Shown: one piece after another, positions 3,457 to 63,136 of the stretch
Layout: each line of letters begins with the position of its first letter
Numbering within the stretch: the first letter of the stretch is position 1
Source: an uncultured Gammaproteobacteria bacterium
GTDB taxonomy: Bacteria; Patescibacteriota; Microgenomatia; UBA12405
Length of the DNA stretch: 64,000 nucleotides
Assembly (NCBI GenBank): GCA_964628885.1
Contig: CAZVMP010000002.1
Location: forward strand, 10,330-74,329
Direction: 5' to 3'
The notes under the pieces: model-generated
The model's input: the letters and a program-made list of their open reading frames with translations, nothing else
The model's database searches: none
What the model was told of the DNA's origin: nothing
Translations under genes and position numbers: made by a program

Positions 3457-3465
3457 TAAATCTAC

Positions 3466-5352: not shown

Positions 5353-5353
5353 T

Positions 5354-6361
5354 ATGACCACCAGACTTTTAACCAATAAGGATAAAACAAAATATAATTC
5401 TGTTATTAAGCACCCCGTCCAAACTTGGGAATGGGGGGAATTCCAACAGAGTCAAGGACACCAGGTTTTTAGATTTGGTGTTTTTGATAATAATAAGCTT
5501 ATCTCTGCTTTCACCATTAGTTTCCATAAAATTCCCAAAACTAATCTTTCTGTCGGAACCATTTTACGCGGTCCAAAAATTGACGAAGACATTCTTCAGG
5601 TTATTAAAAAAGTTGCCTTAAAACAAAATGCCATTTTTGTTAAATTAGAGCCAGATGTTGCCAAGACCCAAGCTTCTATGCAGTTTCCCATGTTAGTCCC
5701 TTCTCCTAAAGTTGCTTTTTATCCTCACACTTTTATTATTGATACTAATAAAACCGAAGACCAGCTTATTGCTAAACTTCATCCCAAGACTAGGTATAAT
5801 ATCAAAGTTGCCAATCGTCATGGAGTTGAAGTTAAAAGATTAACTACCGATAAGGGTTTTGAAATTTATCTTAAATTATTACTTAGTACCACTAAACGTC
5901 AAGGGTTTTATCTTCATACCGCTAAATATCACCGGGATTTATGGAAAATACTTAAAAATACCGATATTCCTCATATTATCTTAGCTTCATATCAAGGCCA
6001 AGTATTATCGGCATTTATGCTTTTTAAATTTAAAGATCAGTTATTTTATCCTTATGGAGCCTCTTTAGATATTAATCGTCAAGTTATGGCTCCAACCCTT
6101 CTTATGTGGGAGGCTATTAAATTAGCAAAAAAACTTAATTGTCATACTTTTGATATGTGGGGTTGTCTTGGTCCTGATGCCAAAGAAGGCCAAAATGGCT
6201 TTGGTTTTCATCGATTTAAACAAGGTTTTGGAGGTGAACTTTTTGAATATCTTGGAACCTATGACCTTGTTATTAATCCTTTTTTGTATTATTTATATAA
6301 TTTAGTCGATAAATTACGCTGGCGCTTACTTAGAATTAAGGCCAGGATTACCAAAAGGTAA
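5354..6361 (+). CDS. FemAB-family aminoacyl-tRNA-dependent peptidoglycan interpeptide-bridge transferase
   Basis: KTRYNIKVANRHGVEV, FYLHTAKYHRDLW and FMLFKFKDQLFYPYGAS resemble FemX/FemA-family motifs. The ORF track starts at 5318, overlapping the helicase. ATG 5354 lies 2 nt after the helicase stop. Confidence 0.6.
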   Translation: MTTRLLTNKDKTKYNSVIKHPVQTWEWGEFQQSQGHQVFRFGVFDNNKLISAFTISFHKIPKTNLSVGTILRGPKIDEDILQVIKKVALKQNAIFVKLEPDVAKTQASMQFPMLVPSPKVAFYPHTFIIDTNKTEDQLIAKLHPKTRYNIKVANRHGVEVKRLTTDKGFEIYLKLLLSTTKRQGFYLHTAKYHRDLWKILKNTDIPHIILASYQGQVLSAFMLFKFKDQLFYPYGASLDINRQVMAPTLLMWEAIKLAKKLNCHTFDMWGCLGPDAKEGQNGFGFHRFKQGFGGELFEYLGTYDLVINPFLYYLYNLVDKLRWRLLRIKARITKR

Positions 6362-36398: not shown

Positions 36399-37007
36399 AT
36401 GATTGCTTCTTCACTTCTTAAAAATACTCGTCTTGATAAAGAATGGGAATTAGAAGATATCTCTAAGAAAATAAAAATTCCTATTAAATATTTACAGGCA
36501 CTTGAAGATGAACAGGTTGGTTGTTTTCCTCAAGAGCCATACTGCTCTTTAATTATTAAAGATTATGCTGATTATTTAGGGCTAAAAGGGGAGGACGTTT
36601 TAGCCTTATTCCGTCGTGATTTTGAGCAGAAAAGAAAATCAAAAAAAGACGAACCTACCAGAGTTTCATTTACTCCAAAGTTTACTTTTACCGTCTCTAT
36701 TTTTGCTATTATTATCTTATTTTCTCTCTATTTAGTTTCTGAATACTTTAAATTTCATCAACCTCCTAAATTAAAAGTAAATTGGCCTCTTGAAGCGACT
36801 ATTTCCAGTTCTATTGTTGAAATTAATGGGGTTACTGATCCTGAAGCTACCATTAGAATCAACGATGATTTAATTATTGTTTCTCCTGACGGTTCATTCC
36901 AAAAAAAGATTAATCTTAACTCTGGTGATAACAATATTACTATTAAATCAACCTCACCTAGCGGTAAATCTATCATAGAAGAGCGGAATATCACTTCTTC
37001 ACTCTAG
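36399..37007 (+). CDS. RodZ-like HTH/TM cytoskeleton-associated protein
   Basis: An N-terminal XRE-like HTH region (ISKKIKIPIKYLQALEDEQ...IKDYADYLGL), a single TM helix, and a C-terminal beta-rich domain. Confidence 0.5.
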   Translation: MIASSLLKNTRLDKEWELEDISKKIKIPIKYLQALEDEQVGCFPQEPYCSLIIKDYADYLGLKGEDVLALFRRDFEQKRKSKKDEPTRVSFTPKFTFTVSIFAIIILFSLYLVSEYFKFHQPPKLKVNWPLEATISSSIVEINGVTDPEATIRINDDLIIVSPDGSFQKKINLNSGDNNITIKSTSPSGKSIIEERNITSSL

Positions 37008-39497: not shown

Positions 39498-41690
39498 ATG
39501 GAAGGGAACAGTTTTTGGTTGATATCTATTCAAAACGACGAAGTTAGTGTTTCCCTAGTTTCCGCCTCTGATAATAAATACCGGGTTTTATCATCTGGCC
39601 CTAGTAAAAACTGGGATATTAACAATCCTTCTACTTTCACCACCGCTATCGATGAGTCTCTTTCTGTAGCTTCTTTAAATGCTAATATCACCGAAGAACA
39701 AGAACCATCAACTGCTGCTTTTGTAATTCCTCCCTTCTGGGTTAGTAATGACAGTAAAATTCTTCCCAGTAAGGTTAAATTTATTAAAGAAGCCTGTAAA
39801 AGTTTATCCTTAACTCCAACTGGGTTTTTAGCCGAAGATGATGCTATTGTTGAGGACGCCAATCAGTCGGATGGATTTCCCGCCAGCTTTATTCTAGTCC
39901 ATCTTTCGGCCAAAGATTTTTACCTTTCTCTAGTTTATCTTGGTCATATTAAAGAGAGAATTAAAAAGGACCTTAGTCAGGAATTTACCGGTCAGGATTT
40001 AGAATCAGCTTTATTAGAAATAAATTCTGAATCAGCTCTCCCTCCTCAAATCATTATCTTTGGTCAGTTTGATGCTAGGATTTTAAGTTCTCTTAAAAAT
40101 TATCCTTGGGTTGGTAAAAAAAACATTGAAACCTTTCTCCATCTCCCTGAAATTAAATCCTATGATCAAGATCAAATTATTGATATTTTTACTCGGGTTA
40201 TTTCCGGCCAAATTAACCACTCTTCCAGACTCCCTGATTCAGATGATTCTTTAGAGGAAACTCCCGTTTCTGATGATAATTTTTCTGACCCTAAAACTCT
40301 AGACGATCCCAATCTTCCACCTTCAACCAGTTCTCAAACCCCTCAAAAAGAAACTTTAATTGAAACTACTCCAGAAGAGCTTGGCTTTGGTCAAACTCCT
40401 TCTGATTTTACTTCTTCGCTTCCTATCATTACTCCTGCCGATATTCCCCCTCAGCCTCAAGATCCTTCTCCGCCAATTTTTACTCCTTCACCTTCGCCTT
40501 CAAGAAAAAGTAAAATTTCCTTTAATTTTTTTAAAAAAATTAAACTTCCTCGGCTAAAATTTAATCAGAACTTTCTCTGGTTTGGTTTAATTTTATTACC
40601 AATTTTAGCTGCTCTTCCATTCTTTTTACTTAAAAGTCAGGTAACTATTTTTGTTATCCCTTATACCTTTAATAAATCTCTTCCAGTGACTCTTAAAGTT
40701 GACGCTAATAATAGTGATATTTCTAAATCTATAATTCCTATTACTAAAGAAGTTTTTGATGTTAAAGCTAAAGTTAGTATTAAGACTACTGGTCAAAGAA
40801 CCATCGGCGATAAGTCTCAAGGAGAAATAATTATTTTTAACAAACTTGATAAACCACAAACTTTGCCAAAAGGAGCTATTATTGTTGATTCAACTGGTAA
40901 AGAATTTGAGCTAGCTACGGGGATTACTATTGCTGCCAGCAGTTCTGATTTAGAAGAGGGGGTTATTAAACTTGGCCAAACTAAGACAGTTGCCATTGCT
41001 TCCGATATCGGCTCAGAATACAATATTGTGGTTGATTCCCAATTAAAGTTCAAAGAATATTCTGAAACCGATTTTATTATCAAGACTGAAACTACTTTCA
41101 GTGGTGGCAGTCGTCAGCAGGTTGCTGCCGTTAGTGCTGAAGATATAACTAATATTCAATCCCAAATTAATCAAGAAATCGCCCAAAAAATTGAAGAAAA
41201 AATAATTCAGACAACGGGAGACGTTTCTGGTCTCATTAAAGAAACTATCCAAAGTAAAAAAGGTAATTTAGAGCTTAGTCGTGAAATTGGGGAAACTACC
41301 GAAGATCTTACTGGTAGTATTTCTGCCTCAGTGACTGTTTTTGTTCTCTCCAATGAGACCAAAGACAGTGTTATTAATCAGTTTATGTCTTCTGAAGCCG
41401 ACTTTAACAACAGTCTTTTTGATCCTAAGGACTATACTTTTTCCCTTAAAGTTAATAAAATTGAAACTAACCAGGCTGCTGGTAACTTAACTGTTTCTGG
41501 TAAGTCTTTGCCCAAAATTAATGAGTCTAATCTCAAAAAAGCCCTAACTTTCAAAACGGTCCAAAAGGGTGGGGATATCATCAAAAAAATGATTCCTCGA
41601 GCATATAATTTTAATATCAAAACTAAACTTCCGCTCCTACCATTTATTGCCAATAATATCAGCGTTGAAGTTAAGACTGAAACTCAGTGA
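39498..41690 (+). CDS. Hypothetical 730-aa bitopic membrane protein: PilM/FtsA-like N-terminal region, Pro-rich linker, TM helix, large extracytoplasmic beta-rich domain
   Basis: The N-terminus WLISIQNDEVSVSLVSASDNKYRVLSSG...AAFVIPPFWVSNDSKILPSKVKFIKEACKSLSL resembles the SHS2/actin-like PilM N-terminal pattern. The linker is P/S/T-rich, the TM helix is FLWFGLILLPILAALPFFLL, and a C-terminal domain of about 360 aa follows. The stop overlaps the sortase start. Confidence 0.4.
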   Translation: MEGNSFWLISIQNDEVSVSLVSASDNKYRVLSSGPSKNWDINNPSTFTTAIDESLSVASLNANITEEQEPSTAAFVIPPFWVSNDSKILPSKVKFIKEACKSLSLTPTGFLAEDDAIVEDANQSDGFPASFILVHLSAKDFYLSLVYLGHIKERIKKDLSQEFTGQDLESALLEINSESALPPQIIIFGQFDARILSSLKNYPWVGKKNIETFLHLPEIKSYDQDQIIDIFTRVISGQINHSSRLPDSDDSLEETPVSDDNFSDPKTLDDPNLPPSTSSQTPQKETLIETTPEELGFGQTPSDFTSSLPIITPADIPPQPQDPSPPIFTPSPSPSRKSKISFNFFKKIKLPRLKFNQNFLWFGLILLPILAALPFFLLKSQVTIFVIPYTFNKSLPVTLKVDANNSDISKSIIPITKEVFDVKAKVSIKTTGQRTIGDKSQGEIIIFNKLDKPQTLPKGAIIVDSTGKEFELATGITIAASSSDLEEGVIKLGQTKTVAIASDIGSEYNIVVDSQLKFKEYSETDFIIKTETTFSGGSRQQVAAVSAEDITNIQSQINQEIAQKIEEKIIQTTGDVSGLIKETIQSKKGNLELSREIGETTEDLTGSISASVTVFVLSNETKDSVINQFMSSEADFNNSLFDPKDYTFSLKVNKIETNQAAGNLTVSGKSLPKINESNLKKALTFKTVQKGGDIIKKMIPRAYNFNIKTKLPLLPFIANNISVEVKTETQ

Positions 41691-42403
41691 GTTATATTTA
41701 TCTCAAAAAAAAGTCAAAATCACTTTCTCCTAAAGTTAAGCGTCGCCGTATTGTTGCTGCTAGCTTTGTTTTTATTGGAATTACCTTTTTGGGTTTAGCC
41801 GTTTTTCCCATTATTGGATTTCAACTTTCTTATTCTACTCGTCTTCGACAGATTATTGATCCTTTATCAACTCAATCATACAATCAAACCTCCATTTTAG
41901 GGGAGTCAGCCACTGATTACACTCAATTATCTAACTGGTTTGTTAATTCCCCAGATCTTCCTAATCTTAATCAGGAAGTGATTGATACCGGAGTTGATAG
42001 CTATTATCTTTCCATCCCTAAACTTAAGATTAATCGGGCCATAGTTGTCCTTGGTAGTATGGATTTAGAAAAAAGTTTAATTCACTATCCACAAACTGCT
42101 CTTCCTGGTCATTTTGGCAACCCTGTTATTTTTGGTCATTCAGTTTTGCCCCAATTTTTTAACTCCAAAAACTATCTAACTATCTTTTCTACTCTTTTTA
42201 AACTAAATCAGGGAGATGAAATAATTATTGAATATGATAAATCCACCTATAAGTATATTGTTGAAGAAATGTTTGAAGTTAAACCTACCAATCTTTCAGT
42301 CTTAGATCAAAGATTTGATGATAAAACTCTAACCTTGATTACTTGTAGCCCTCCGGGAACCTATCTCCGTCGCTTAATTATTAAGGCTCATTTAGCCTTA
42401 TAA
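41687..42403 (+). CDS. Sortase-family transpeptidase
   Basis: N-terminal TM anchor. Catalytic His (VIFGHS), LTLITCSPPG (the TLxTC Cys motif), and a downstream Arg (YLRRLII). Confidence 0.7.
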   Translation: MSYIYLKKKSKSLSPKVKRRRIVAASFVFIGITFLGLAVFPIIGFQLSYSTRLRQIIDPLSTQSYNQTSILGESATDYTQLSNWFVNSPDLPNLNQEVIDTGVDSYYLSIPKLKINRAIVVLGSMDLEKSLIHYPQTALPGHFGNPVIFGHSVLPQFFNSKNYLTIFSTLFKLNQGDEIIIEYDKSTYKYIVEEMFEVKPTNLSVLDQRFDDKTLTLITCSPPGTYLRRLIIKAHLAL

Positions 42404-53563: not shown

Positions 53564-53567
53564 AAAT

Positions 53568-53993
53568 ATGCCAACAGCAAACCAACTTATCAAAAAAGGC
53601 CGCAAAGTGAGGATTAAAAAACTCAAAACCGGGGCTCTTCGTGATAATTTTAATACCGTTAATAATCGTTTTACTAAAACTATTAATCCGGTTAAAAAAG
53701 GGGTAGTAACTGTCGTTAAAACTATGACCCCTAAAAAACCTCATTCTGCTTTGAGAAAAATTTGTAAAGTCAAATTAAGTAATCGAAACTTGGTTACTGC
53801 TTATATTCCTGGTATTGGCCATAATTTAGCCGAACACAGTATTGTCTCTATTCGTGGAGGTCGGGTCCGAGATTTACCTGGTGTCCGTTATCATGTTATT
53901 AGAGGTAAATTTGACGCTGCTGGTGTTACTGGAAGAATGCAATCTCGCAGTAAATACGGTGCTAAAAAACCTGGGGCCGCTAAAGCTGCCTAA
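53568..53993 (+). CDS. rpsL: 30S ribosomal protein S12
   Basis: [12 protein letters not shown]...PKKPNSALRK-like region ([16 protein letters not shown]) and [13 protein letters not shown] 53568 lies 4 nt after the rpoC stop. Confidence 0.9.
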
Positions 53994-54033
53994 ATTATAA
54001 ACTTTATAACTTTTAACTTTATAAAAAACTATT

Positions 54034-54516
54034 ATGTCCAGAAAAGGAGCTAGTAAAATTAGACAAGTTGAACCAGATGCTATCTATAATAGTGTTTTGG
54101 TCTCCAAAATTATTAATGCTACCATGAAAGATGGTAAGCGGAATGCTGCTGAAAAACAAATTTATCAAGCATTAGAATTAATTAAAAAGGATTTTCCTAA
54201 AGAATCAGAGTTAGAGGTTCTGGAGAGAGCTTTCGAAAATATTAAGCCTAAGATTGAAGTCCGTCCTCGTCGAATTGGAGGTGCTGTTTATCAAATTCCT
54301 ACCCCAGTTCGAGGTCTCCGTCAAAATTCTTTAGCAATTCGTTGGTTAATTAGTTCTTCTCGAGCTAGAAGTAATAAACAATACCATTCGTTTGCTCAAA
54401 AAATTGCCGCTGAACTTAATGATGCCCTTAGTAATAGTGGGGCTGCTGTCGCCAAAAGAGTAGAAATCGAACGGATGGCTGAAGCTAATAAAGCCTTTGC
54501 TCACCTCAGGTGGTAG
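54034..54516 (+). CDS. rpsG: 30S ribosomal protein S7
   Basis: MSRKG...VLVSKIINATMKDGKRNAAEKQIY...RW matches S7. Confidence 0.9.
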   Translation: MSRKGASKIRQVEPDAIYNSVLVSKIINATMKDGKRNAAEKQIYQALELIKKDFPKESELEVLERAFENIKPKIEVRPRRIGGAVYQIPTPVRGLRQNSLAIRWLISSSRARSNKQYHSFAQKIAAELNDALSNSGAAVAKRVEIERMAEANKAFAHLRW

Positions 54517-54600
54517 TTTTACAAACTAAAAACCTATTGTTGGGGATTTTTTTCTTTAGTCTTGATTTCATAGTTAAATTTAGTCATACTTAGATAATAT

Positions 54601-55968
54601 ATGTCGTTATTTTCCAAGCCCAAGATTGTTATTTGGCCCAAAAGTCAGTCGGTTGAAATTTATCTTAGCCGTAAGGACAATAATTTTTTCAGTTTAGATA
54701 TTAATCTTTGGCAAGAAAGATCAGGAAAGGATTTGGAGGGGTTAATTTTTTTCCTAAATCAAAACAAAATTACTCAAGCTTCAGTTTTAATTCCTGATGA
54801 TGTTGTTGTTACTAAATCATTTGTTTATGATACTAAAATTGACACCATTGATAAAAAAGAGGTTATTAGTCTAGCTTCCGGTTTTGTTAATTTTAATATT
54901 AATCCAGAATCTATTGAATATTCTCTAATTCAAGATGGAGATAAAACTATCATTAACTCCGTTATTTATGATAAATCGAAAATTGATTGTCTTAAATCTA
55001 ATCTCCTTAAAACTAATTTAAACATCACTTCCTATCAACCAGTTTCAGCCGCAGTTAGCAACGTTGTTTCTAGAATTTATCTTAATGAATTTTTTCTTAT
55101 CTATCCCTTAAATGATCGTGAATATACTTTATTGCTCTCAAAAAATAATCAAGTTTATTTGACCGCTAATTTTAAAGGTCCAGGACTTGATATTCAAAAA
55201 ACCATTAATTATGCTCAACTGTATTTTTCTAATCCAGTTACCAAAATCTATTATCCGGAGAATAAAGACTTAGAAATTATTACTTCTACAGAAATGGAAA
55301 AAACTTCCTATAATGAAACTCAAATTGCTCAAAGCTTAAACCAACCTGGGAATATGCCGTTACCAGTTGTTGGTCAGAATAATGGTATAATTAACTCAAA
55401 TAAAGATATTAGTTTAACTAAACAATCAAATATGAATAATAAAAAGAATTTAATCCCTATAATTGCCGTTATTATCTTTTCTTTTGCGATTGTTTCCTTT
55501 ATTGTTTATCTTATAATCAACAAAAATCAATCTTCTGAAATAATTGATGGTAATCAACTTGACCAAGATGTCATTCCTACCACCATTATTGAAGCTATTA
55601 CTCCCGAACCCACTCCAATCGTTGAAGAAATTAGTAAGGATATAAAAATCCAGGTCCTAAATGCTACTGAAATTAACGGTCAGGCTGCTACTCTTAAGGC
55701 TAAATTAGTTTCTTTAGGATTTGAAAACGTTGCCGTCGGCAATGCTGCCACTGCTGCCACTACTAATTCTGTTCAGGTTAAATCAGCCACTACTTCAGCT
55801 TATTTTGAGTCAGTTTTAATGGAAGATTTCCCCGCCGACTATACCGACGATCTTAAATCAACCTCTACTTATGATGCTGTTTTCACTATTGGTACCGACA
55901 TTTCTGGGATGAAAACTATTACTGTTACTCCCACCACAACTACCACTCCTACCGTTGTTGAAGAATAA
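54601..55968 (+). CDS. Bitopic membrane protein: PilM-like N-terminal cytoplasmic domain, TM helix, C-terminal LytR_C (LytR/CpsA/Psr C-terminal) domain
   Basis: The N-terminus KIVIWPKSQSVEIYL...ASVLIPDDVVVTKSF...IEYSLIQDGDKTIINSVIYDKSKIDCLKSNLLKTNLNI follows the PilM/FtsA-like pattern. The TM helix is LIPIIAVIIFSFAIVSFIVYLII. The C-terminus IKIQVLNATEINGQAATLKAKLVSLGFENVAVGNAA...YDAVFTIGTD matches the LytR_C consensus. A candidate promoter (TTGATT...TAGATAAT) lies at 54561-54597. Confidence 0.45.
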   Translation: MSLFSKPKIVIWPKSQSVEIYLSRKDNNFFSLDINLWQERSGKDLEGLIFFLNQNKITQASVLIPDDVVVTKSFVYDTKIDTIDKKEVISLASGFVNFNINPESIEYSLIQDGDKTIINSVIYDKSKIDCLKSNLLKTNLNITSYQPVSAAVSNVVSRIYLNEFFLIYPLNDREYTLLLSKNNQVYLTANFKGPGLDIQKTINYAQLYFSNPVTKIYYPENKDLEIITSTEMEKTSYNETQIAQSLNQPGNMPLPVVGQNNGIINSNKDISLTKQSNMNNKKNLIPIIAVIIFSFAIVSFIVYLIINKNQSSEIIDGNQLDQDVIPTTIIEAITPEPTPIVEEISKDIKIQVLNATEINGQAATLKAKLVSLGFENVAVGNAATAATTNSVQVKSATTSAYFESVLMEDFPADYTDDLKSTSTYDAVFTIGTDISGMKTITVTPTTTTTPTVVEE

Positions 55969-55975
55969 TTAATTT

Positions 55976-57250
55976 ATGGTTGAGTCGTCACGGTATCAAC
56001 AGGATCAGCTAGCTATTTCAAACAAGGAGAAAATAGATTCTCTTCGAGAATTTACTGTTTCTCCTGATGGTCAAGAGACCATGATTAATTTTGTTGAATC
56101 TCTCAGATCAGAAGTTGGTAATCGGTCTGGTTGGGAAGCTGTTTGCCGTCAGGCTGAAGCCGAAATATCACTTTACCCGGTTACCGATGAGGTTTTAAAC
56201 AAGTTAAATCAATCTTTTTCTGTTTTTATTGATCGAATGCCTCCTGGTCACGACCGTGGTCATTTATCCCGCGATTTATTAGCCTCACTTTATCTCTACG
56301 GCTCTACTAGGAACAACATCTCTTATAAATCAGATGCAACTGCTGGTTTACTGGCCGGTATTTACCATGATATTGGCACGGCTATTATTCCTAGATATCA
56401 GGACAACAAGTACGGCGCCGGTCATGCTGAAACTGGTTCTTATCTTTTTTGGCAGATTTCAGAGGGGCTTATTGATGAAAATACCCGAAAATTAGCTTGT
56501 TATGCTATTGCCGCTCATACTCATTATTTAAATGATATTAAGACTTCTTTTCCTAAAGATTATCTCAGAAAAACTTACTGGGATGATCTCCATCAGGATG
56601 ATGACGGCAAGCTTATCGGTACCGCCATCCATCTAACTCGTTGCAGTGATAGGGCTGATAGTAATGGGGTTAATCTTATTTTTCGTCACATCAACGCTAA
56701 TATAGACACTCTTCAACAAGGTGGTCAAGAAATTCATGATGATCAGTGGATTGATATTAACCGCGACAGTTTAATTAAGGTCTTAACTCCTATTATTAGG
56801 GAAGATCAAACCAAACCATTAACCACCTTAGAGCACGTTCTCCGTTTTGCTAAGTCAAATGACGGTACCACTCCTTATTCTAAGAATGATCATTTTTTTC
56901 CCGAATTTAAAAAAATACTTAGATTAGAGCTGGCTCAATTTAGAGATTTTATGACTAGTCTTAACGACCACTCTTCATCTATTAACGGTAACAACCTCTC
57001 TTCTCAGGAGACAATAAAATCTTTTTTGTATAAATTTTCCAAATCAGATCCTCATGATTTTGATCAAGCTTGGTTAAGTTTCACCAAAATTTGGCCTCAA
57101 ATCAACAAAGACCACCAGCTTCGTTGGTATCGTGGCACGGCTTATGCCAAATCAGCTTATAATGACTTACTTGATTTTTATCAGCAGGAACTCAAATCAT
57201 CCGATTTTCCACTAACTGTTGACCGCACTATTGATTTTCTCCGCCACTAG
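55976..57250 (+). CDS. Hypothetical HD-domain-like protein
   Basis: PPGHDRGHLSRD, GIYHDIGTA, AGHAETG, AIAAHTHYLND and RCSDRADSNG show a His/Asp metal-ligand pattern consistent with an HD phosphohydrolase fold. The call is weak. Confidence 0.35.
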   Translation: MVESSRYQQDQLAISNKEKIDSLREFTVSPDGQETMINFVESLRSEVGNRSGWEAVCRQAEAEISLYPVTDEVLNKLNQSFSVFIDRMPPGHDRGHLSRDLLASLYLYGSTRNNISYKSDATAGLLAGIYHDIGTAIIPRYQDNKYGAGHAETGSYLFWQISEGLIDENTRKLACYAIAAHTHYLNDIKTSFPKDYLRKTYWDDLHQDDDGKLIGTAIHLTRCSDRADSNGVNLIFRHINANIDTLQQGGQEIHDDQWIDINRDSLIKVLTPIIREDQTKPLTTLEHVLRFAKSNDGTTPYSKNDHFFPEFKKILRLELAQFRDFMTSLNDHSSSINGNNLSSQETIKSFLYKFSKSDPHDFDQAWLSFTKIWPQINKDHQLRWYRGTAYAKSAYNDLLDFYQQELKSSDFPLTVDRTIDFLRH

Positions 57251-57286
57251 AAACTGTCTTGAAAAATCGCTTCCAAATACGATACA

Positions 57287-58306
57287 ATGGTGTCACATAT
57301 GAAAATACTAATTACTGGCGGTCTTGGTTTTATTGGTTCGAATTTCATTAAGTATTGGTTTAAACAACATCCCAATGATTCCATCATTAATTTTGATAAG
57401 GTTACTTATGCTGCCAACCCTCGTAATTTAGTTGAATTTAATAATCATCCCAATTATCGTTTTGTTAAAGGTGATATTTTAGATGAGGCTTTGGTTAATG
57501 ACCTAGTTTCTCAGGTTGATCTAATTGTTCATTTTGCTGCCGAGTCACACGTTGATCGCTCTATTGATGACCCATCATTATTTGTTCGCACTAACGTCTT
57601 GGGTACTTACAATCTTTTAATGGCTGCTCGTCAACATAATACCCGTTTTCACCATGTTTCCACTGATGAGGTTTTTGGCAGTATTGATATTGACTCTTCT
57701 AATCAATTTAATGAAACTACTCCTTACGATCCCTCCAGCCCTTATTCAGCTTCTAAGGCTTCATCAGATCATTTTGTCAGATCTTTTCATAAAACTTTTG
57801 GTTTACCGGTTACTATTAGTAACTGTTCCAATAATTATGGTCCTTATCAGCATCCTGAAAAAATGATTCCTCGGACAGTTACCAACCTTTTGTCTGGTCA
57901 AAAAGTCAAAATTTATGGTCAAGGTCTTAATTTCCGTGATTGGCTTCATGTTGAAGACCATTGTCGGGCTTTAGAATTAATTATTCTAAAAGGTAGAATT
58001 GGTCAAACTTACTGTATTGGTGGTCTTAAGAAAGGTACTTCCAATATTGATTTGGTTAAACAAATCTTAAAATTAATGAATAAGGATGAATCCGATATTG
58101 AATATGTTGCTGACCGCCCAGCTCACGACAATTATGCTGTCAATTGGGATAAGATTAGTCAAGAATTGGGTTGGCAACCTCAATATGATTTAGAGTCAGG
58201 TCTCAAACAAACCATCAACTGGTATACTCAAAACGAATCCTGGTGGCAGGAAACCAAAAAAGAAGCTGAAGAGTTTTATCTCAAATTAAATCAATCAAAA
58301 AAATAA
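57287..58306 (+). CDS. rfbB: dTDP-glucose 4,6-dehydratase
   Basis: MKILITGGLGFIGSNF Rossmann motif, the YSASKAS catalytic YxxxK, and DEVFG. Confidence 0.85.
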   Translation: MVSHMKILITGGLGFIGSNFIKYWFKQHPNDSIINFDKVTYAANPRNLVEFNNHPNYRFVKGDILDEALVNDLVSQVDLIVHFAAESHVDRSIDDPSLFVRTNVLGTYNLLMAARQHNTRFHHVSTDEVFGSIDIDSSNQFNETTPYDPSSPYSASKASSDHFVRSFHKTFGLPVTISNCSNNYGPYQHPEKMIPRTVTNLLSGQKVKIYGQGLNFRDWLHVEDHCRALELIILKGRIGQTYCIGGLKKGTSNIDLVKQILKLMNKDESDIEYVADRPAHDNYAVNWDKISQELGWQPQYDLESGLKQTINWYTQNESWWQETKKEAEEFYLKLNQSKK

Positions 58307-58854
58307 TGCCGAATTTTGTCAACACCAATATTGACGGCCTAATCATTATTGAACCCTCAGTTTTCAAAGATGATAGGGGATTTTTTTTGGAAAGCTATAA
58401 TCAAAAAGTTTTTGCTGATAACGGCATTGATGTTAATTTTGTTCAGGACAATCACTCCAGCTCAACACAAGGAGTACTTCGTGGACTTCATTTTCAAAAA
58501 CCACCCTTTTCTCAGGATAAACTTATCCGCTGTTCTCGTGGTGAGGTTTTTGATGTTGCCGTTGACCTTCGACCTAACTCTGTCACTTTTGGTCAGTGGG
58601 AAAGCCTTATTTTATCCGAAGATAACCAAAAAATGTTTTTTATTCCCCAAGGCTTTGCTCATGGGTTTTTAGTTTTATCAGACATTGCTGATTTTCAGTA
58701 TAAATGTAGTAATTTTTATCACAAGGAATCGGAGTCCGGTCTTATCTGGAATGATCCTGATTTAAATATTAATTGGCCTCAAGTTAATAACTTAATTTTG
58801 TCTGACAAAGACAAGCTCTGGCCTAGTTTGAAAGATTTTAAGGAGACTTTATGA
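58306..58854 (+). CDS. rfbC: dTDP-4-dehydrorhamnose 3,5-epimerase
   Basis: EPSVFKDDRGFF, RGLHFQ and FIPQGFAHGF cupin motifs. The ATG overlaps the rfbB stop. Confidence 0.85.
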   Translation: MPNFVNTNIDGLIIIEPSVFKDDRGFFLESYNQKVFADNGIDVNFVQDNHSSSTQGVLRGLHFQKPPFSQDKLIRCSRGEVFDVAVDLRPNSVTFGQWESLILSEDNQKMFFIPQGFAHGFLVLSDIADFQYKCSNFYHKESESGLIWNDPDLNINWPQVNNLILSDKDKLWPSLKDFKETL

Positions 58855-59741
58855 CCACTATCATTGGCACCGGTCTAACCGGTCTAGTTGGTAGTCGGAT
58901 TGTTGAGTTACTGAAAGATAATTATAATTTTGTTGATTTTTCCCTTGATTCGCAAGTTAATATTCTTGATCAAGGTAGTCTTTCTCAAGCTTTTGGAGCC
59001 AATAGTAGTGCTACTACCATTATCCATTTAGCTGCTTTCACTGATACCGCTGCTGCTTGGGAACAAAGAGGCGATAAATCTGGCCTTTGCTATCAACTTA
59101 ATGTTACTGGAACTAAAAATATCCTTGATTTAGCCCAAAAACATCGTCTTAAATTAATTTATATTTCCACCGATTTTGTTTTTAGTGGCAGTAAAACTAC
59201 TCCTTATTTTGAAACTGATATGCCTGATCCTATTGAATGGTATGGTGAAACTAAATATTTAGGTGAAAAATTAATTCAAGATTCAAGTTACCCTAACTAT
59301 GCTATTGCTAGGATTACCTACCCTTATCGGGCTAATTTTGATAAAAAACCAGACATTATTCATAAAGTCTTAACCAAACTTCAAAATGGGGAGACAGTTA
59401 AGATGTTTTCTGATCAGATTTGTACTTACACTTTTATTGATAATATTGCTTATGGAATAGACAAGCTCATTAAAAGTGACTCTCGTGGTATTTATCATTT
59501 AGTAGGATCTTCTTCTCATTCTCCTTATCATATGGCCCAACTAGTTGCCAAAACCTTTGGTTATAACGAAAAATTAGTTCAAGCTTCAAGCTTAAAAGAT
59601 TATCTTAAATCACAGCCGGCCGGTTCTCGTCCTTGGCAAGAAACCTTAATTACTTCTAATCAAAAAGCCGTTAATTTAGGGATAAGTTTTAAGACCTTAA
59701 TTGAAGGTTTAGAAGAAATTAAAGTTCAGAAATCACTTTAG
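58851..59741 (+). CDS. rfbD: dTDP-4-dehydrorhamnose reductase
   Basis: RmlD-like short Rossmann (IIGTGLTGLVGSRI), YISTDFVF, and the YGETKYLGE catalytic YxxxK. 4-nt overlap with rfbC. Confidence 0.7.
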   Translation: MTTIIGTGLTGLVGSRIVELLKDNYNFVDFSLDSQVNILDQGSLSQAFGANSSATTIIHLAAFTDTAAAWEQRGDKSGLCYQLNVTGTKNILDLAQKHRLKLIYISTDFVFSGSKTTPYFETDMPDPIEWYGETKYLGEKLIQDSSYPNYAIARITYPYRANFDKKPDIIHKVLTKLQNGETVKMFSDQICTYTFIDNIAYGIDKLIKSDSRGIYHLVGSSSHSPYHMAQLVAKTFGYNEKLVQASSLKDYLKSQPAGSRPWQETLITSNQKAVNLGISFKTLIEGLEEIKVQKSL

Positions 59742-60936
59742 CCATTTTTCTTGCTTCCTTGATGGCAAAATTTAAACCTCTGTCTTCAGGGTAGATTTGG
59801 GCAAAATTCATTTGGTAAATTTTATTAGACAGTTTGACCTTAGGAATTTTACTTTTGTAATCAGTAGTTACTATTTGCTGAGCCTCTTTAAATCTAAACA
59901 CCGACACCTTATTAACCATTTTGCTATCAAATTTAGGAAATATTTTATTAAGGTATTTAAACCAATCATCAGTTATTTTTTTATCGCTCCATTTAAAAAA
60001 TTTATGATTTCTAGGCAGATAAGCTCCTAGATAGTAAATTTCCTTATTTCCGTAATTTTTTTTATCAATTAAATTAGTCTGTTGTACCACCGCTACAAAA
60101 GGGGAATTAGTGTCATTAATGTTATGCCAGTAATAAGGGCTTAAGTTTTGTTTGCTTTCAAAAACTACCCCAATTACCCCTAAATATTCTACTTTTTTTG
60201 ATGGCCTAGTATCCACGATAATCTCATAATTCTTTTCCAATTCTGTTAACTTTTCTAAGTTGGTGTTTAGTTTAATTTCCCCTCCGTTTTCTTTGATTAA
60301 TTTAGCCAGTTTTTCTACTATTAGTTCAAAGCCTCCGTTAATATAACCTAAAACCTCTTCACCTTTTTTGTTAGTTGAGTTGCCCCTAGTATGAATTCTG
60401 GCCCACAACCAAGCCATGGAAATATCTTTGTAATAATTATGAAACTTACCTTTTAGTAATGGTTTCCAAACCACCTCATAAGCCTTTTTTCCCACCGCCT
60501 TCTTCATCCATTGATCAGCTGTAATTTTTTCATATTTTTCCCAATTTTTATCAAACTTTAGCCATAGTGCCACCATTCCCATTCTTAATTTACTTACCAA
60601 GCTTAAGGGTTTAAATTTTAATAAATCTATTGCTGTTACAAATGGATATATTTCTCCGTCCCAATATAATCCTAGTAAGCTTTTATACCAACCAATATTT
60701 TCTTTTAAACCAATTTCTTTCACTAGTTTTATAAAATCGGTATCAGTTTTAAAAAAATGGTGATATAGCTGTTCTAGTTTATTTTCTCCTATTTTAAATC
60801 CAGCCAACAAGCCTCCCAGTTGTTTCTCTTTTTCTAATATAGTTATCTTATTACCCTTTTTTGATAAAAAATATCCCAATGTCAATCCGCCAATACCACC
60901 TCCGACAATTACAATATTTTTCCCTTTTCTATTCAT
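59719..60936 (-). CDS. FAD/NAD(P)-binding oxidoreductase (amine-oxidase / PPOX / CrtI-like fold)
   Basis: The N-terminal dinucleotide-binding motif reads NIVIVGGGIGGLTLGYFLSKKGNKITILEKEKQLGG. The C-terminal FAD-contact region is GLNFAIKEARKMAK. It is convergent with rfbD, overlapping by 23 nt. Confidence 0.55.
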   Translation of the reverse strand: MNRKGKNIVIVGGGIGGLTLGYFLSKKGNKITILEKEKQLGGLLAGFKIGENKLEQLYHHFFKTDTDFIKLVKEIGLKENIGWYKSLLGLYWDGEIYPFVTAIDLLKFKPLSLVSKLRMGMVALWLKFDKNWEKYEKITADQWMKKAVGKKAYEVVWKPLLKGKFHNYYKDISMAWLWARIHTRGNSTNKKGEEVLGYINGGFELIVEKLAKLIKENGGEIKLNTNLEKLTELEKNYEIIVDTRPSKKVEYLGVIGVVFESKQNLSPYYWHNINDTNSPFVAVVQQTNLIDKKNYGNKEIYYLGAYLPRNHKFFKWSDKKITDDWFKYLNKIFPKFDSKMVNKVSVFRFKEAQQIVTTDYKSKIPKVKLSNKIYQMNFAQIYPEDRGLNFAIKEARKMAKVISEL

Positions 60937-61024
60937 TTACTCTTATGGTATCATAGAAACAGTCGCTGTTACCGTGACTTTGATGGTAGCAGTTTTTATT
61001 ATTTATCTAGATTTAAAACTATTT

Positions 61025-63136
61025 ATGGCCGAACAAATTAAATTAACCAAAAACCGTGACGTGCCTATGGAGAAAGTCCGTAATATTGGTATTATTGCTC
61101 ACATTGATGGCGGTAAAACCACTACTACCGAGCGTCTCTTATTTTATACTGGCAATATTCACAAAATTGGTTCAGTTGATGACGGTACCACTACCACTGA
61201 TTCCATGGTTCAAGAAAGAGAGAGAGGAATTACTATTCAGTCTGCTTGTGTTACTACTTTTTGGAAAGATTTTCGTCTCAACGTTATTGACACTCCTGGT
61301 CACGTTGATTTTACCGCTGAAGTCGAACGGTCACTTCGTGTTCTCGATGGGGCAATCATGATTTTTGATGGTAATGCTGGAGTTCAGGCTCAATCTGAAA
61401 CTGTTTGGCGCCAAGCTGATAAATATCACGTTCCTCGAATTGCTTTCGTTAATAAAATGGATAAAATTGGTGCTTCTTTTGAAAATACTCTTAAAAGTAT
61501 TCAAGACAAACTCCGTGCTCCTATTGTTCCTGTGGTTATTCCTATTGGTCAAGAACACGACTTTACTGGTGTTATTGATCTCATGACTCAAAAAATGATT
61601 GTTTATGACAAAGATGAACAAGGAATGGAATTTACCACTAAAGATGTTACCGATGATTATCGGGAAGCAGTTACTCTTGCCAGAGCTAAGATGGTAGAGC
61701 AAATTGCCGGTGAAGATGAGTCTCTTATGGAAAAATTTCTCAATGACCAAGAAATTTCTGTCCCAGAATTAAAAGCTGCTCTTAGAAAAGCCACTATTGA
61801 TCGCCGTCTTTTTCCAGTTTATTGTGGTGCTGCCTGGCGCAATAAAGGTATTCATCCTATTCTTGATGGGATTGTTGATTATTTACCCTCTCCTTTAGAT
61901 CTTCCTCCGATTGAGGGTTTTAATCCAGAAAATAACGAAGTTATTCTTCGTCGCCCACTTAAAACTGATCCTCTCTCAGCCTTACTTTTTAAAGTTCAAG
62001 CCGATCCTCACATAGGAACCTTATCCTATGTTAGAGTTTATTCTGGAAATCTTAAGGCTGGATCCGAAGTTTACAACACCACTAAGGGTAAAAGTGAGCG
62101 GATTGGGCGTCTTCTTTTAATGCATGCTGATAAGCGAGAAGGAATTGAGGAGGGTTTTGCTGGTGAGATTGTTGCCTGTATTGGTCTTAAAGAATCAACT
62201 ACTGGCGATACTTTATGCGACGGTAATAATGTTATTTCTTTGTCACCAATTCAGTTTTCTGAACCAGTTATCTCTCTTTCTGTTGAGCCTTTAACTACCG
62301 ATGATCAGGAAAAAATGGGTTCGGCTCTTAATCGCCTTGCCATCGAAGATCCGACCTTTAAAGTTAGTTATAATCACGAAACTGGTCAAACTATCATTGG
62401 GGGTATGGGAGAGCTTTATTTAGAAATAGTTGTTGATCGTCTTAAGCGCGAATTCGGAGTTGGGGTTAAAACCGGTTCTCCACAAGTAGCTTATCGAGAA
62501 ACTATTTCCAACAACGCAGAAGGTGAAGGTAAATATATTCATCAATCTGGTGGTCATGGTCAATATGGTCACTGTAAAATTAAAGTTGAACCAAAAAACC
62601 GTGGCGAAGGCTATGAATTTGTTAACGCTGTTAAGGGTGGAGCTATTCCTGCTAATTTTATTCCCGCTATTGAAAAGGGAGTTAAAGAAACTCTCCAAAA
62701 AGGGATTATTGCTGGTTATCCTTGCACCGATATCAAGGTTACTGTTTATGATGGCACTTATCACGAAGTTGACTCTTCTGAGATGGCTTTTAAACTAGCT
62801 GGATCCTATGCTATTAAAGATGCCTTCCAGGCTGCCAATCCTTTAGTCTTGGAACCGATTATGAAGTTTGAGGTTAACACTCCATCAGAATTTTTAGGTT
62901 CAGTTATTGGAGATTTATCTTCACGACGTGGTCAAATTAATAGTACTTCTGAATCTGGAAACTTTACTACTATTGAAGCTTCAGTTCCTTTAGAGGCAGT
63001 TCGTGGTTATGCTACTGTTATTAGAAGTTTAACCCAGGGTAGGGGATCATTTTATATGGAGCCTAGTCACTATGATCCAGTTCCTCGTGATATCCAGGAA
63101 CAGTTGACTAGCAAAATAAATCTTGGATCAAAGTAA
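61025..63136 (+). CDS. fusA: Elongation factor G
   Basis: MAEQIKLTKNRDVPMEKVRNIGIIAHIDGGKTTTTERLL with the full five-domain EF-G. The 17-codon upstream extension in the ORF track was rejected. Confidence 0.95.
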   Translation: MAEQIKLTKNRDVPMEKVRNIGIIAHIDGGKTTTTERLLFYTGNIHKIGSVDDGTTTTDSMVQERERGITIQSACVTTFWKDFRLNVIDTPGHVDFTAEVERSLRVLDGAIMIFDGNAGVQAQSETVWRQADKYHVPRIAFVNKMDKIGASFENTLKSIQDKLRAPIVPVVIPIGQEHDFTGVIDLMTQKMIVYDKDEQGMEFTTKDVTDDYREAVTLARAKMVEQIAGEDESLMEKFLNDQEISVPELKAALRKATIDRRLFPVYCGAAWRNKGIHPILDGIVDYLPSPLDLPPIEGFNPENNEVILRRPLKTDPLSALLFKVQADPHIGTLSYVRVYSGNLKAGSEVYNTTKGKSERIGRLLLMHADKREGIEEGFAGEIVACIGLKESTTGDTLCDGNNVISLSPIQFSEPVISLSVEPLTTDDQEKMGSALNRLAIEDPTFKVSYNHETGQTIIGGMGELYLEIVVDRLKREFGVGVKTGSPQVAYRETISNNAEGEGKYIHQSGGHGQYGHCKIKVEPKNRGEGYEFVNAVKGGAIPANFIPAIEKGVKETLQKGIIAGYPCTDIKVTVYDGTYHEVDSSEMAFKLAGSYAIKDAFQAANPLVLEPIMKFEVNTPSEFLGSVIGDLSSRRGQINSTSESGNFTTIEASVPLEAVRGYATVIRSLTQGRGSFYMEPSHYDPVPRDIQEQLTSKINLGSK

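What the first reader, a model, noticed from the sequence alone, without database searches (positions are those of the whole stretch)
54601..55968. Unusual domain architecture: PilM/FtsA-like N-terminus, TM helix, LytR_C domain
The LytR_C domain normally sits at the C-terminus of LCP-family (LytR-CpsA-Psr) wall-teichoic-acid/glycopolymer ligases, or occurs as a stand-alone extracytoplasmic module. Here it is fused through one TM helix to a cytoplasmic domain whose conserved-position pattern resembles the actin-like PilM/FtsA N-terminal (SHS2) region. No LCP catalytic domain is present. A second protein in the window, at 39498-41690, has the same PilM-like N-terminus, linker, TM and large ectodomain layout. 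These may be a lineage-specific family coupling a cytoplasmic actin-like scaffold to cell-wall-facing domains.
Basis: inference. Interest (0 to 1): 0.55.

Follow-up and report, generated by a model that had tools for sequence, protein, structure and literature searches.

The report
Actin-fold membrane scaffold with LytR_C ectodomain
A real, conserved gene found only in one group of ultra-small uncultivated bacteria (Shapirobacteria) encodes a membrane protein that joins a degenerate actin-like domain inside the cell, of the kind seen in pilus and secretion machines, to a cell-wall-associated LytR_C domain outside; the combination is undescribed, and its role is inferred rather than shown.

Summary
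ORF 54601-55968 (+) encodes a 455-aa protein with four parts:
- a 260-residue cytoplasmic domain predicted to have an actin-like (ASKHA) fold, with best structural matches to PilM, the GspL/EpsL cytoplasmic domain and FtsA;
- one N-in transmembrane helix;
- a Pro/Thr-rich linker;
- a LytR_C domain scoring above Pfam's threshold. No LCP catalytic domain is present.

The actin-like domain carries the FtsA/PilM/GspL-type SHS2 insert. It lacks subdomain 2B and all glycine-rich phosphate-binding loops, so it is most like the non-nucleotide-binding GspL cytoplasmic domain.

An HMM of this domain finds only 35 clusters among 1.84 billion proteins. All those not truncated to fragments have about the same length (436-525 aa). 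It occurs in 61 GTDB species, essentially Shapirobacteria.

The gene almost always lies directly after rpsG, inside the str operon. It is usually followed by dTDP-rhamnose genes (rmlBCD), and never by pilus or secretion genes.

The second protein (39498-41690) also has an ASKHA-fold N-terminus, a TM helix and an ectodomain. It lacks the SHS2 insert and shows no sequence homology to the first protein. Its gene is coupled to a sortase gene. It is an analogue, not the same family.

Best reading: a non-enzymatic transmembrane docking scaffold for cell-envelope assembly. This is a new variant of a known kind, of moderate interest.

The parts
54601..55968 (+). Whole gene: 455-aa bitopic membrane protein (actin-fold domain, TM helix, LytR_C)
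   Evidence: ORF. More than 288 homologues of 436-525 aa with the same layout. AF2 model.
54601..55386 (+). Residues 1-262: cytoplasmic actin-like (ASKHA) domain, degenerate. Subdomains 1A + 1C(SHS2) + 2A; no 1B, no 2B, no phosphate-binding loops
   Evidence: Foldseek PDB: PilM 2e-12, EpsL/GspL 8e-10 (TMt 0.58-0.60), FtsA 1e-8. Secondary-structure order. No DxG motif and only 9 Gly. No Pfam, NCBIfam or PDB sequence match. Sub-threshold PilM_2 hit in register in one member.
54793..54972 (+). Residues 65-124: SHS2-type (strand-helix-strand-strand) insert = subdomain 1C. It is the most conserved part of the family (TKSF[VI]YD, E87, L91, F98, T116)
   Evidence: DSSP elements E69-76, H85-92, E105-112, E115-123. 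Conservation in the divergent alignment A5. hhalign local alignments to E. coli GspL and HofM fall on this region, though not significantly.
55078..55386 (+). Residues 160-262: subdomain 2A (second RNase-H-like half), ending in the conserved N-[LM]-P-L-P-V-x-G motif (251-258)
   Evidence: Secondary structure. Invariant columns.
55387..55452 (+). Residues 263-284: low-confidence variable cytoplasmic linker ending in the conserved juxtamembrane KKN[IL][LI]P motif
   Evidence: pLDDT <50 for 262-284. Alignments.
55453..55530 (+). Residues 285-310: single transmembrane helix, N-in/C-out
   Evidence: AF2 helix 285-310. Hydrophobicity and positive-inside count in 23 of 23 representatives.
55531..55638 (+). 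Residues 311-346: disordered, Pro/Thr-rich extracytoplasmic linker
   Evidence: pLDDT <50 for 309-340. Sequence. Alignment.
55639..55896 (+). Residues 347-432: extracytoplasmic LytR_C domain (beta-alpha-beta-beta-alpha-beta-beta)
   Evidence: PF13399 33.6-37.8 bits against cut-off 22.2. Matches 23 of 23 members. AF2 pLDDT 75-85. Weak match to PDB 6q10.
55897..55968 (+). Residues 433-455 plus stop codon: Thr/Pro-rich C-terminal tail, variable in length between homologues
53565..54516 (+). rpsL and rpsG (ribosomal proteins S12 and S7), immediately upstream. Conserved neighbours
   Evidence: rpsG lies upstream in 60 of 61 GTDB loci; the gap is under 200 bp in 53 of 60, median 84 bp.
55976..57250 (+). 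Weak HD-domain protein (424 aa). Variable neighbour, detected in only 3 of the 61 GTDB loci (L006, L010, L013)
   Evidence: Pfam HD 18.6 bits, below the cut-off. Detected only in L006, L010 and L013.
57287..59741 (+). rmlB, rmlC, rmlD (dTDP-L-rhamnose synthesis). Conserved downstream neighbours
   Evidence: Pfam. Present downstream in 38 of 39 loci with at least 4 kb of downstream sequence.
59719..63136 (.). FAD/NAD oxidoreductase (59719-60936, minus strand), then fusA (60974-63136, plus strand), where the str operon resumes
   Evidence: Pfam. Synteny.
39498..41690 (+). Second, unrelated bitopic protein (730 aa): minimal ASKHA core (1-243), disordered P/S-rich linker, TM helix (357-377), beta-rich ectodomain (380-730)
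   Evidence: AF2 pLDDT 78.9. Foldseek. No homology to the first protein.
41687..42403 (+). Sortase gene. Its start overlaps the stop of the 730-aa gene by 4 bp
   Evidence: Pfam Sortase 91.3 bits. The order alaS, X, sortase, ruvX, mltG is conserved in L066 and L067.

Best explanation
The gene encodes a non-enzymatic, bitopic inner-membrane scaffold built on the GspL plan. It has a cytoplasmic actin-fold domain that has lost the nucleotide-binding loops and therefore acts as a protein-docking module, mainly through its highly conserved SHS2/1C subdomain. A single N-in TM helix and a flexible Pro/Thr-rich stalk follow. The extracytoplasmic LytR_C domain engages the cell wall or an LCP-type wall-glycopolymer ligase, as shown for the solo-LytR_C protein VirR of mycobacteria.

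The gene is probably co-transcribed with rpsL-rpsG and sits next to the dTDP-rhamnose genes. I therefore propose that it is a housekeeping, growth-coupled organiser of envelope or wall-glycopolymer assembly in Shapirobacteria. It would link a still unidentified cytoplasmic partner to the wall, rather than form part of a type IV pilus or type II secretion machine.

Shown: the architecture, topology, fold class, loss of the nucleotide-binding motifs, narrow phyletic range and synteny. Inferred: docking function, wall or LCP binding, and a link to rhamnose polymers.
For: Architecture and topology.

Fold: the nearest structures are PilM, BT_3980, the EpsL/GspL cytoplasmic domain and FtsA. GspL gives the highest target-normalised TM-scores (0.58-0.60) over about 265 columns, matching the domain's size.

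Subdomain composition is 1A + SHS2 + 2A with no 2B.

Nucleotide-binding motifs are missing. The positions of phosphate-1, phosphate-2 and the adenosine loop read W12-P13-K14, Y168-P169-L170-N171 and P219. There is no DxG motif anywhere in residues 1-262.

The strongest conservation lies in the SHS2 insert.

LytR_C is present in 23 of 23 members. LytR_C mediates VirR self-interaction and VirR-Lcp interaction, and VirR localises to sites of nascent wall (PMC11832169).

Synteny: rpsG lies upstream in 60 of 61 species, with a median gap of 84 bp. rml genes lie downstream in 38 of 39. No pilus or secretion genes lie in the intervening variable DNA.

CPR bacteria already have canonical PilM (with a GspL domain), PilN and PilO, which co-localise with pilB/C (PMC6744442). 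This protein matches none of those Pfam families.
Against: No partner protein has been identified and there is no experimental data.

The synteny is inherited within one clade, so it is weak evidence for functional coupling. The most divergent members (L002/L003, L065) lack the rml genes and sit directly before fusA.

The closest structural relatives all belong to type IV filament machines or the divisome, which favours the rival explanations by analogy.

Loss of nucleotide binding is read from sequence and predicted secondary structure, not from a superposition or an assay.

The AF2 model rests on a shallow alignment (41 sequences, 58-83% identity).

I could not check whether these genomes encode an LCP ligase, canonical PilMNO or FtsA.
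Confidence: 0.5

Rival explanations
1. It is the lineage's type IV filament platform protein: a true functional GspL/MshI/BfpC-type fusion of PilM and PilN. The cytoplasmic domain would clamp the assembly ATPase (PilB/GspE) and PilC. The ectodomain would tie the machine to the wall, with LytR_C replacing the usual ferredoxin-like periplasmic domain.
For: The best fold matches are PilM and the GspL cytoplasmic domain. The domain composition and bitopic topology are the same as in GspL, BfpC and PilO2 (PMC3984277). One member gives a sub-threshold PilM_2 HMM match in the correct register (residues 56-186 against profile 61-204, E 0.061). Conserved NLPLPV and juxtamembrane KKN[IL]LP motifs recall the PilN N-terminal IN[LF]LP motif that binds PilM (E. 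coli HofN begins MNPPINFLPWR). Type IV pili are central to CPR biology (PMC6744442).
Against: None of the 61 loci, nor the 64-kb window, has a pilus or secretion gene near this gene. CPR lineages generally have a recognisable PilM/PilN/PilO set that co-localises with pilB/pilC. The ectodomain is LytR_C, not a PilN/PilO/GspL_C-type domain by sequence. The motif resemblance is short and was not tested.
Confidence: 0.2
2. It is a divisome or elongasome anchor. The FtsA-like module would be tethered permanently by a TM helix instead of an amphipathic helix. It would connect a cytoskeletal polymer (FtsZ, FtsA or MreB) to wall synthesis through LytR_C, as RodZ connects MreB to the periplasm.
For: FtsA structures match at E about 1e-8. 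The SHS2/1C subdomain is the part of FtsA that recruits late division proteins (established knowledge). Housekeeping placement in the str operon. Weak NCBIfam similarity of the TM-plus-linker region to streptococcal RodZ and to Cei. VirR localises to sites of nascent wall.
Against: Subdomain 2B, which binds the FtsZ C-terminal peptide in FtsA, is absent. The ATP-binding loops that canonical FtsA has are missing, so ATP-dependent behaviour like that of FtsA is not expected. The RodZ and Cei scores are far below their cut-offs (19 against 375 bits; 26.5 against 150 bits). A separate RodZ-like HTH_25 protein is already encoded at 36399-37007. There are no division genes in the conserved neighbourhood.
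Confidence: 0.15
3. The N-terminal 'actin fold' is an artefact of structure prediction, and the protein is simply a solo LytR_C membrane protein with an unrelated cytoplasmic domain.
For: The AF2 alignment is shallow (41 sequences at 58% identity or more). There is no significant sequence-level match to any actin-like family.
Against: pLDDT is 80-90 across the domain. There are 115 PDB matches at E<=0.001, and all 50 matches listed are actin-fold proteins or complexes/integrative models containing one. The secondary-structure order reproduces two RNase-H-like halves plus an SHS2 insert. The weak HMM and hhalign alignments to PilM_2, HofM and GspL all fall in the equivalent register.
Confidence: 0.05

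Closest known systems
GspL/EpsL (type II secretion) and its type IV pilus counterparts BfpC, PilO2 (PF06864) and MshI
   Same: Bitopic N-in layout. The cytoplasmic actin-fold domain is reduced to 1A + 1C-like + 2A, with no 2B and no nucleotide binding. One TM helix is followed by an ectodomain. GspL gives the highest target-normalised TM-scores (0.58-0.60). See also PMC3984277.
   Different: No sequence-level membership in T2SSL, GspL_C or PAP_PilO. The ectodomain is LytR_C rather than a ferredoxin-like GspL_C/PilN-type domain. The gene lies in the str operon next to rml genes, not in a gsp, pil or bfp operon.
PilM (type IVa pilus, PF11104)
   Same: Best Foldseek E-values (2e-12). SHS2-type 1C insert. 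A faint PilM_2 HMM signal in register.
   Different: PilM is soluble, binds ATP, has subdomain 2B, and is tethered through the N-terminus of a separate PilN. Here the ATP loops and 2B are absent and the TM helix is part of the same chain.
FtsA (PF14450 / SHS2_FTSA)
   Same: Actin fold with an SHS2 1C insert, attached to the membrane.
   Different: No 2B (the FtsZ-binding subdomain), no ATP-binding motifs, a true TM helix instead of an amphipathic helix, and an added ectodomain.
Solo LytR_C proteins VirR (Rv0431) and Cei (Rv2700) of mycobacteria
   Same: Membrane-anchored, extracytoplasmic LytR_C without an LCP catalytic domain. Implicated in envelope integrity and binding of LCP ligases (PMC11832169). 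Weak NCBIfam Cei similarity.
   Different: Those proteins have only a short cytoplasmic N-terminus. This family has a 260-residue actin-fold domain. The Cei model scores 26.5 bits against a cut-off of 150.
RodZ
   Same: The same logic: a cytoplasmic cytoskeleton-related domain, one TM helix, and an extracytoplasmic wall-facing domain.
   Different: RodZ's cytoplasmic domain is an HTH that binds MreB, not an actin fold. The RodZ model scores 19 bits against a cut-off of 375. A separate HTH_25 protein exists at 36399-37007.

Membership tests
LytR_C domain (Pfam PF13399) | Match to the family HMM above the gathering score | tested here: met
   33.6 bits (full protein) and 37.8 bits (isolated domain) against a cut-off of 22.2. 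Matches 23 of 23 divergent members, best E 3.4e-11, several over profile positions 2-85 of 86.
LCP (LytR-CpsA-Psr) glycopolymer ligases | Presence of the LCP catalytic domain (PF03816) | tested here: not met
   No such hit at E<=1 in the window protein, nor at E<=10 in 23 members. The space between the TM helix and LytR_C is a 36-residue disordered linker.
Actin-like ATPase (ASKHA) fold superfamily | Two RNase-H-like beta-beta-beta-alpha-beta-alpha-beta-alpha halves around a cleft | tested here: met
   AF2 secondary-structure order. 115 PDB matches at E<=0.001, and all 50 matches listed are actin-fold proteins or complexes/integrative models containing one. This rests on a predicted structure only.
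Actin-like ATPase (ASKHA) fold superfamily | Phosphate-1, phosphate-2 (DxG...) and adenosine (GG) nucleotide-binding loops | tested here: not met
   There is no DxG motif anywhere in residues 1-262. The hairpin loops read WPK(S) and YPLN(D), and the adenosine position reads P219. Only 9 Gly are present, none at these positions. The mapping uses predicted secondary structure, not a superposition.
FtsA/PilM/GspL clade of actin-like proteins | SHS2-type 1C subdomain inserted in 1A in place of subdomain 1B | tested here: met
   Strand-helix-strand-strand at 69-123, inserted after beta-4. Only 13 residues lie between beta-3 and alpha-1, so there is no 1B.
PilM (PF11104) | HMM match; ATP binding; subdomain 2B; a separate PilN partner; a pilMNO(PQ) operon | tested here: not met
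   The best PilM_2 hit in 23 members is E 0.061 at 12.7 bits, against a cut-off of 27. 2B and the ATP loops are absent. No pil genes in 61 loci.
GspL (PF05134 T2SSL + PF12693 GspL_C) | HMM match to the cytoplasmic and periplasmic domains | tested here: not met
   No hit at E<=10. hhalign against E. coli GspL gives probability 0.5%, although the alignment falls in the equivalent region.
GspL (PF05134 T2SSL + PF12693 GspL_C) | Bitopic N-in topology with a nucleotide-free actin-fold domain lacking 2B | tested here: met
GspL (PF05134 T2SSL + PF12693 GspL_C) | Encoded with, and binding, the GspE ATPase and GspM | tested here: not met
   The gene context test failed: no gsp or pil genes in the window or in 61 loci. 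Binding itself cannot be tested with these tools.
FtsA | HMM match; subdomain 2B that binds the FtsZ tail; C-terminal amphipathic membrane helix | tested here: not met
   No FtsA or SHS2_FTSA hit. No 2B. The protein has a TM helix plus an ectodomain instead.
Cei (NF035953) and streptococcal RodZ (NF041534) | Score above the NCBIfam equivalog cut-off | tested here: not met
   26.5 bits against 150, and 19 bits against 375. The matches cover only the TM helix, the linker and the start of LytR_C.

The most novel reading that the evidence does not exclude
The GspL/PilM-PilN type of transmembrane module, so far known only from type IV filament machines, has been exapted in Shapirobacteria as a stand-alone, housekeeping organiser of wall or rhamnose-glycopolymer assembly. 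Its conserved NLPLPV and KKN[IL]LP peptides may be relics of the PilN 'INLLP' handle that now bind the SHS2 groove in cis. Together with the unrelated sortase-coupled ASKHA-TM-ectodomain protein in the same genome, this would indicate that these minimal cells repeatedly use nucleotide-free actin-fold domains as cytoplasmic handles for extracellular wall-assembly modules.
Probability: 0.25. Interest if true: 0.65.

Novelty: new variant of a known kind. Interest (0 to 1): 0.42.

Why it matters
Shapirobacteria belong to the Candidate Phyla Radiation. These bacteria are uncultivated, have tiny genomes, and their envelope biogenesis is largely unknown.

This protein is conserved in every member of the lineage sampled here and is inserted in one of the most conserved operons in bacteria (rpsL-rpsG-fusA). 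It joins two modules that have not been reported together in the literature searched here.

If it is an envelope-assembly scaffold, it would extend the functional range of GspL-type pseudo-actin modules beyond pilus and secretion machines. It would also give the poorly understood LytR_C domain a defined cytoplasmic connection.

In practical terms, the N-terminal 260 residues define a domain family with no Pfam or NCBIfam model. The proteins are currently annotated only as 'LytR C-terminal domain-containing protein' or 'hypothetical'.

Tried and rejected
- A sequence profile of the N-domain against PDB sequences gave only noise (best E 0.15, SusD).
- Direct comparison of the two window proteins found nothing: BLASTP E 0.14 and hhalign probability 0.2%. 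The 'one family' idea is rejected.
- hhalign of the family profile against single E. coli GspL and HofM sequences was not significant (probabilities 0.5% and 0.8%). However, both best alignments fall on the equivalent beta-4/SHS2 region. A diverse PilM or GspL profile was not available.
- The PAP_PilO sub-threshold hit in P0136 covers the TM segment and is probably driven by hydrophobicity, so it does not count as evidence.
- The promoter and terminator scan around the gene gave counts no higher than shuffled sequence, so co-transcription with rpsG is inferred only from the short conserved gap.
- The HD-domain gene immediately downstream was considered as a partner. It is detected in only 3 of the 61 GTDB loci (L006, L010, L013), so it was rejected.
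- ORFs in the variable DNA between this gene and its neighbours look like Nudix-type, RmlA and miscellaneous genes, not pilus or secretion components.
- Literature searches for LytR_C together with PilM, actin-like, or CPR terms returned no relevant paper.
Full report
**1. What is there**

Homologues start with the same MSLFSKPK peptide, which fixes the start codon.

Pfam finds one significant family, LytR_C (PF13399), at residues 347-401. It scores 33.6 bits against a gathering score of 22.2. No LCP catalytic domain and no other family is found at E<=1. Scanned alone, the C-terminal region scores 37.8 bits. All 14 close and all 23 divergent family members match LytR_C (best E 3.4e-11), and several match over profile positions 2-85 of 86.

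NCBIfam gives only far-sub-threshold similarity to Cei (26.5 bits against a cut-off of 150) and to streptococcal RodZ (19 against 375). Both matches cover only the TM helix, the linker and the start of LytR_C.

Each of 23 cluster representatives has exactly one strongly hydrophobic segment. In the window protein it is residues 287-305, with a Kyte-Doolittle mean of 3.0; the next best segment scores <=1.55. There are 65 K/R residues in the N-side flanks and 27 in the C-side flanks. This indicates N-in, C-out. The stretches on either side of LytR_C are Pro/Thr-rich and predicted disordered.

**2. The N-terminal domain**

No sequence method recognises it. Pfam and NCBIfam give nothing. A family profile searched against all PDB sequences gives nothing better than E 0.15.

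An AlphaFold2 model built on 41 homologues has pLDDT 80-90 across residues 9-260. Its best Foldseek matches in the PDB are:

| Match | E-value | Note |
|---|---|---|
| P. aeruginosa PilM | 2e-12 | |
| BT_3980 (actin-like, function unknown) | 6e-10 | |
| Cytoplasmic domain of EpsL/GspL | 8e-10 | highest target-normalised TM-scores, 0.58-0.60 over about 265 columns |
| T. thermophilus PilM | 4e-9 | |
| FtsA | about 1e-8 | |
| Ppx/GppA, MreB, Hsp70 | weaker | |

The predicted order of secondary-structure elements is as follows:
- three strands, a helix and a strand;
- a strand-helix-strand-strand unit at residues 69-123;
- a helix, a strand and a helix;
- a second three-strand unit followed by helices and strands.

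This corresponds to subdomain 1A carrying an SHS2-type 1C insert, followed by subdomain 2A. Only 13 residues lie where actin, MreB and Hsp70 carry subdomain 1B. Nothing lies where PilM and FtsA carry 2B. That composition is the one described for the GspL/EpsL, BfpC and PilO2 cytoplasmic domains (PMC3984277; Abendroth et al. 2004 as cited there).

The glycine-rich nucleotide-binding loops are missing. The first hairpin reads W12-P13-K14. The equivalent hairpin of the second half reads Y168-P169-L170-N171. The adenosine position reads P219. These residues are invariant or nearly so among the close homologues. There is no DxG motif anywhere in residues 1-262. I therefore regard the domain as a nucleotide-free pseudo-ATPase. 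This is an inference from sequence and predicted structure.

The most conserved stretch across the divergent family is the SHS2 insert: TKSF[VI]YD, E87, L91, F98 and T116. This is the kind of surface that FtsA, PilM and GspL use for partner binding (established knowledge).

Faint sequence signals agree with the fold assignment, though none is significant alone:
- One member (P0122) matches Pfam PilM_2 at residues 56-186 against profile positions 61-204 (E 0.061).
- The best hhalign local alignments of the family profile fall on the same beta-4/SHS2 region in E. coli GspL (43-147 against 35-136) and in HofM (60-154 against 72-166).

**3. Distribution**

An HMM of residues 1-262 was run against 1.84 billion cluster representatives. 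It finds 35 proteins, all at E<1e-10, and nothing between 1e-10 and 1e-3. All those not truncated to fragments are 436-525 aa long.

The word-indexed search finds at least 288 clusters at 90% identity. Where named, they are called 'LytR C-terminal domain-containing protein' from Candidatus Shapirobacteria or Woesebacteria.

Among 185,579 GTDB species genomes, 61 carry the gene. Nearly all are labelled Shapirobacteria, generic Patescibacteria or Microgenomates.

**4. Genomic context**

In the window the order is as follows:
- rpoB, rpoC, rpsL, rpsG;
- this gene;
- a weak HD-domain protein;
- rmlB, rmlC, rmlD;
- an FAD/NAD oxidoreductase on the minus strand;
- fusA.

Across the 61 GTDB loci:
- rpsG lies upstream in 60. 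The remaining contig has only 78 bp of upstream sequence.
- The gap is below 200 bp in 53 of 60, with a median of 84 bp.
- Of 39 loci with at least 4 kb of downstream sequence, 38 carry rml genes.
- fusA follows wherever the contig reaches far enough.

In the most divergent members (P0141: L002 and L003; also L065), the gene sits directly between rpsG and fusA-tuf-rpsJ, or before the oxidoreductase and fusA.

The DNA between this gene and its neighbours is variable. It holds Nudix-like genes, an RmlA gene and unrelated ORFs, but no pilus or secretion genes. The rest of the 64-kb window has no pil, gsp or fts cytoskeletal genes either.

Consensus promoter and terminator scans are uninformative.

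The firm facts are these. The gene was inserted into the str operon in the ancestor of this lineage, it has been retained there, and it is usually accompanied by the dTDP-rhamnose genes. Because all of this lies within one clade, synteny is only weak evidence of functional coupling.

**5. The second protein**

ORF 39498-41690 (730 aa) belongs to its own Shapirobacteria-restricted family.

Its AF2 model (pLDDT 78.9) has the following parts:
- an N-terminal ASKHA core at residues 1-243, made only of 1A and 2A, with no SHS2 insert;
- a disordered P/S-rich linker of about 110 residues;
- a TM helix at residues 357-377;
- a beta-rich ectodomain.

Foldseek places PilM first (1.2e-7). PPX/GppA, EutJ, YeaZ, ParM and HgdC-type activators score similarly. 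The ectodomain picks up phage baseplate wedge proteins.

It has no detectable sequence relationship to the first protein (BLASTP E 0.14; hhalign probability 0.2%).

Its stop codon overlaps the start of a sortase gene by 4 bp. The order alaS, this gene, sortase, ruvX, mltG is conserved in distant relatives.

The layout is therefore analogous to the first protein, but the two are not one family.

**6. Mechanism**

Solo LytR_C proteins are known from mycobacteria. VirR localises to sites of nascent wall. It self-associates and binds LCP ligases through LytR_C domains (PMC11832169).

GspL-type domains are nucleotide-free docking platforms for cytoplasmic partners, such as the GspE N-domain.

Combining these facts, I propose a non-enzymatic scaffold. 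Its cytoplasmic pseudo-actin domain recruits an unidentified partner through the conserved SHS2 surface. Its LytR_C domain, held on a flexible stalk, engages the wall or a wall-glycopolymer ligase. Its expression is tied to growth by its position after rpsG. The rml neighbourhood suggests a rhamnose-containing wall polymer as the process being organised.

There are three rivals:
- A genuine pilus or secretion platform of the GspL/MshI type. Fold and motif resemblance favour it. Gene context and the general presence of canonical PilM/N/O in CPR argue against it (PMC6744442).
- A divisome or elongasome anchor of the FtsA or RodZ type. The missing 2B subdomain argues against it, as does the separate RodZ-like gene at 36399-37007.
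- A prediction artefact, which is unlikely.

I could not check whether these genomes encode PilMNO, FtsA or an LCP ligase. That census, together with co-folding against a full proteome, would decide the matter.

**7. Novelty and verdict**

No paper in the searchable library mentions LytR_C together with PilM, with actin-like domains, or with CPR lineages. The N-domain has no Pfam or NCBIfam model.

Both building blocks are known kinds, and so is the bitopic pseudo-actin plan. What is new is the combination, the non-pilus genomic setting and the family itself. I rate it a new variant of a known kind, of moderate interest (0.42). It is solid as an observation, modest in surprise, and hard to test experimentally because the organisms are uncultivated.

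Noticed in passing
window 53565-63136: The str operon (rpsL-rpsG-fusA) is interrupted by about 6.4 kb between rpsG and fusA. The insert holds this gene, an HD-like gene, rmlBCD and an oxidoreductase on the opposite strand. The interruption is conserved across 61 species. The most divergent members have only this gene inserted.
   Followed up: yes
window 39498-42403: The 730-aa ASKHA-TM protein has a beta-rich ectodomain whose best fold matches include phage baseplate wedge proteins (phi812, XM1, Mu, A-1(L)). Its gene overlaps the downstream sortase gene by 4 bp, which suggests translational coupling. The pair is inserted in the widespread alaS-ruvX-mltG cluster.
   Followed up: partly
window 36399-37007: A 202-aa protein directly after ftsK has a RodZ-type HTH_25 domain plus a Glucodextran_B-like C-terminal domain. 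It is a probable RodZ-like protein. The ftsK/HTH_25 pairing recurs in locus L067.
   Followed up: no
window 55351-55374 and 55438-55458 (residues 251-258 and 280-286): Two conserved Pro-containing motifs follow the actin-fold domain. One is N-[LM]-P-L-P-V-x-G at its end. The other is KKN-[IL]-[LI]-P at the membrane. Both resemble the PilN/HofN N-terminal IN[LF]LP peptide that docks on PilM (E. coli HofN begins MNPPINFLPWR). This may hint at a PilM-PilN fusion ancestry. It was not tested.
   Followed up: partly
loci L007-L065 (GTDB record titles): Many genomes carrying this Shapirobacteria-specific gene in the same rpoC-rpsL-rpsG context are titled 'uncultured Gammaproteobacteria bacterium' (CAY*/CAZ* accessions). 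The titles look like placeholder or wrong taxonomy labels.
   Followed up: no
window 55976-57250: A 424-aa protein lies immediately downstream, with only a sub-threshold HD-domain match (18.6 bits against a cut-off of 22). It is detected in only 3 of the 61 GTDB loci (L006, L010, L013), so it is not a conserved partner.
   Followed up: partly
window 748-6361: A cluster of envelope-related genes: a PAP2 phosphatase, a large DUF2298 membrane protein (697 aa) and a FemAB-family peptidyltransferase. A UvrD helicase gene lies between the last two.
   Followed up: no
locus L057 8382-9140: In one genome an RmlA-like glucose-1-phosphate thymidylyltransferase gene lies directly downstream of the homologue. 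This gene encodes the first enzyme of the dTDP-rhamnose pathway, next to the homologue.
   Followed up: no
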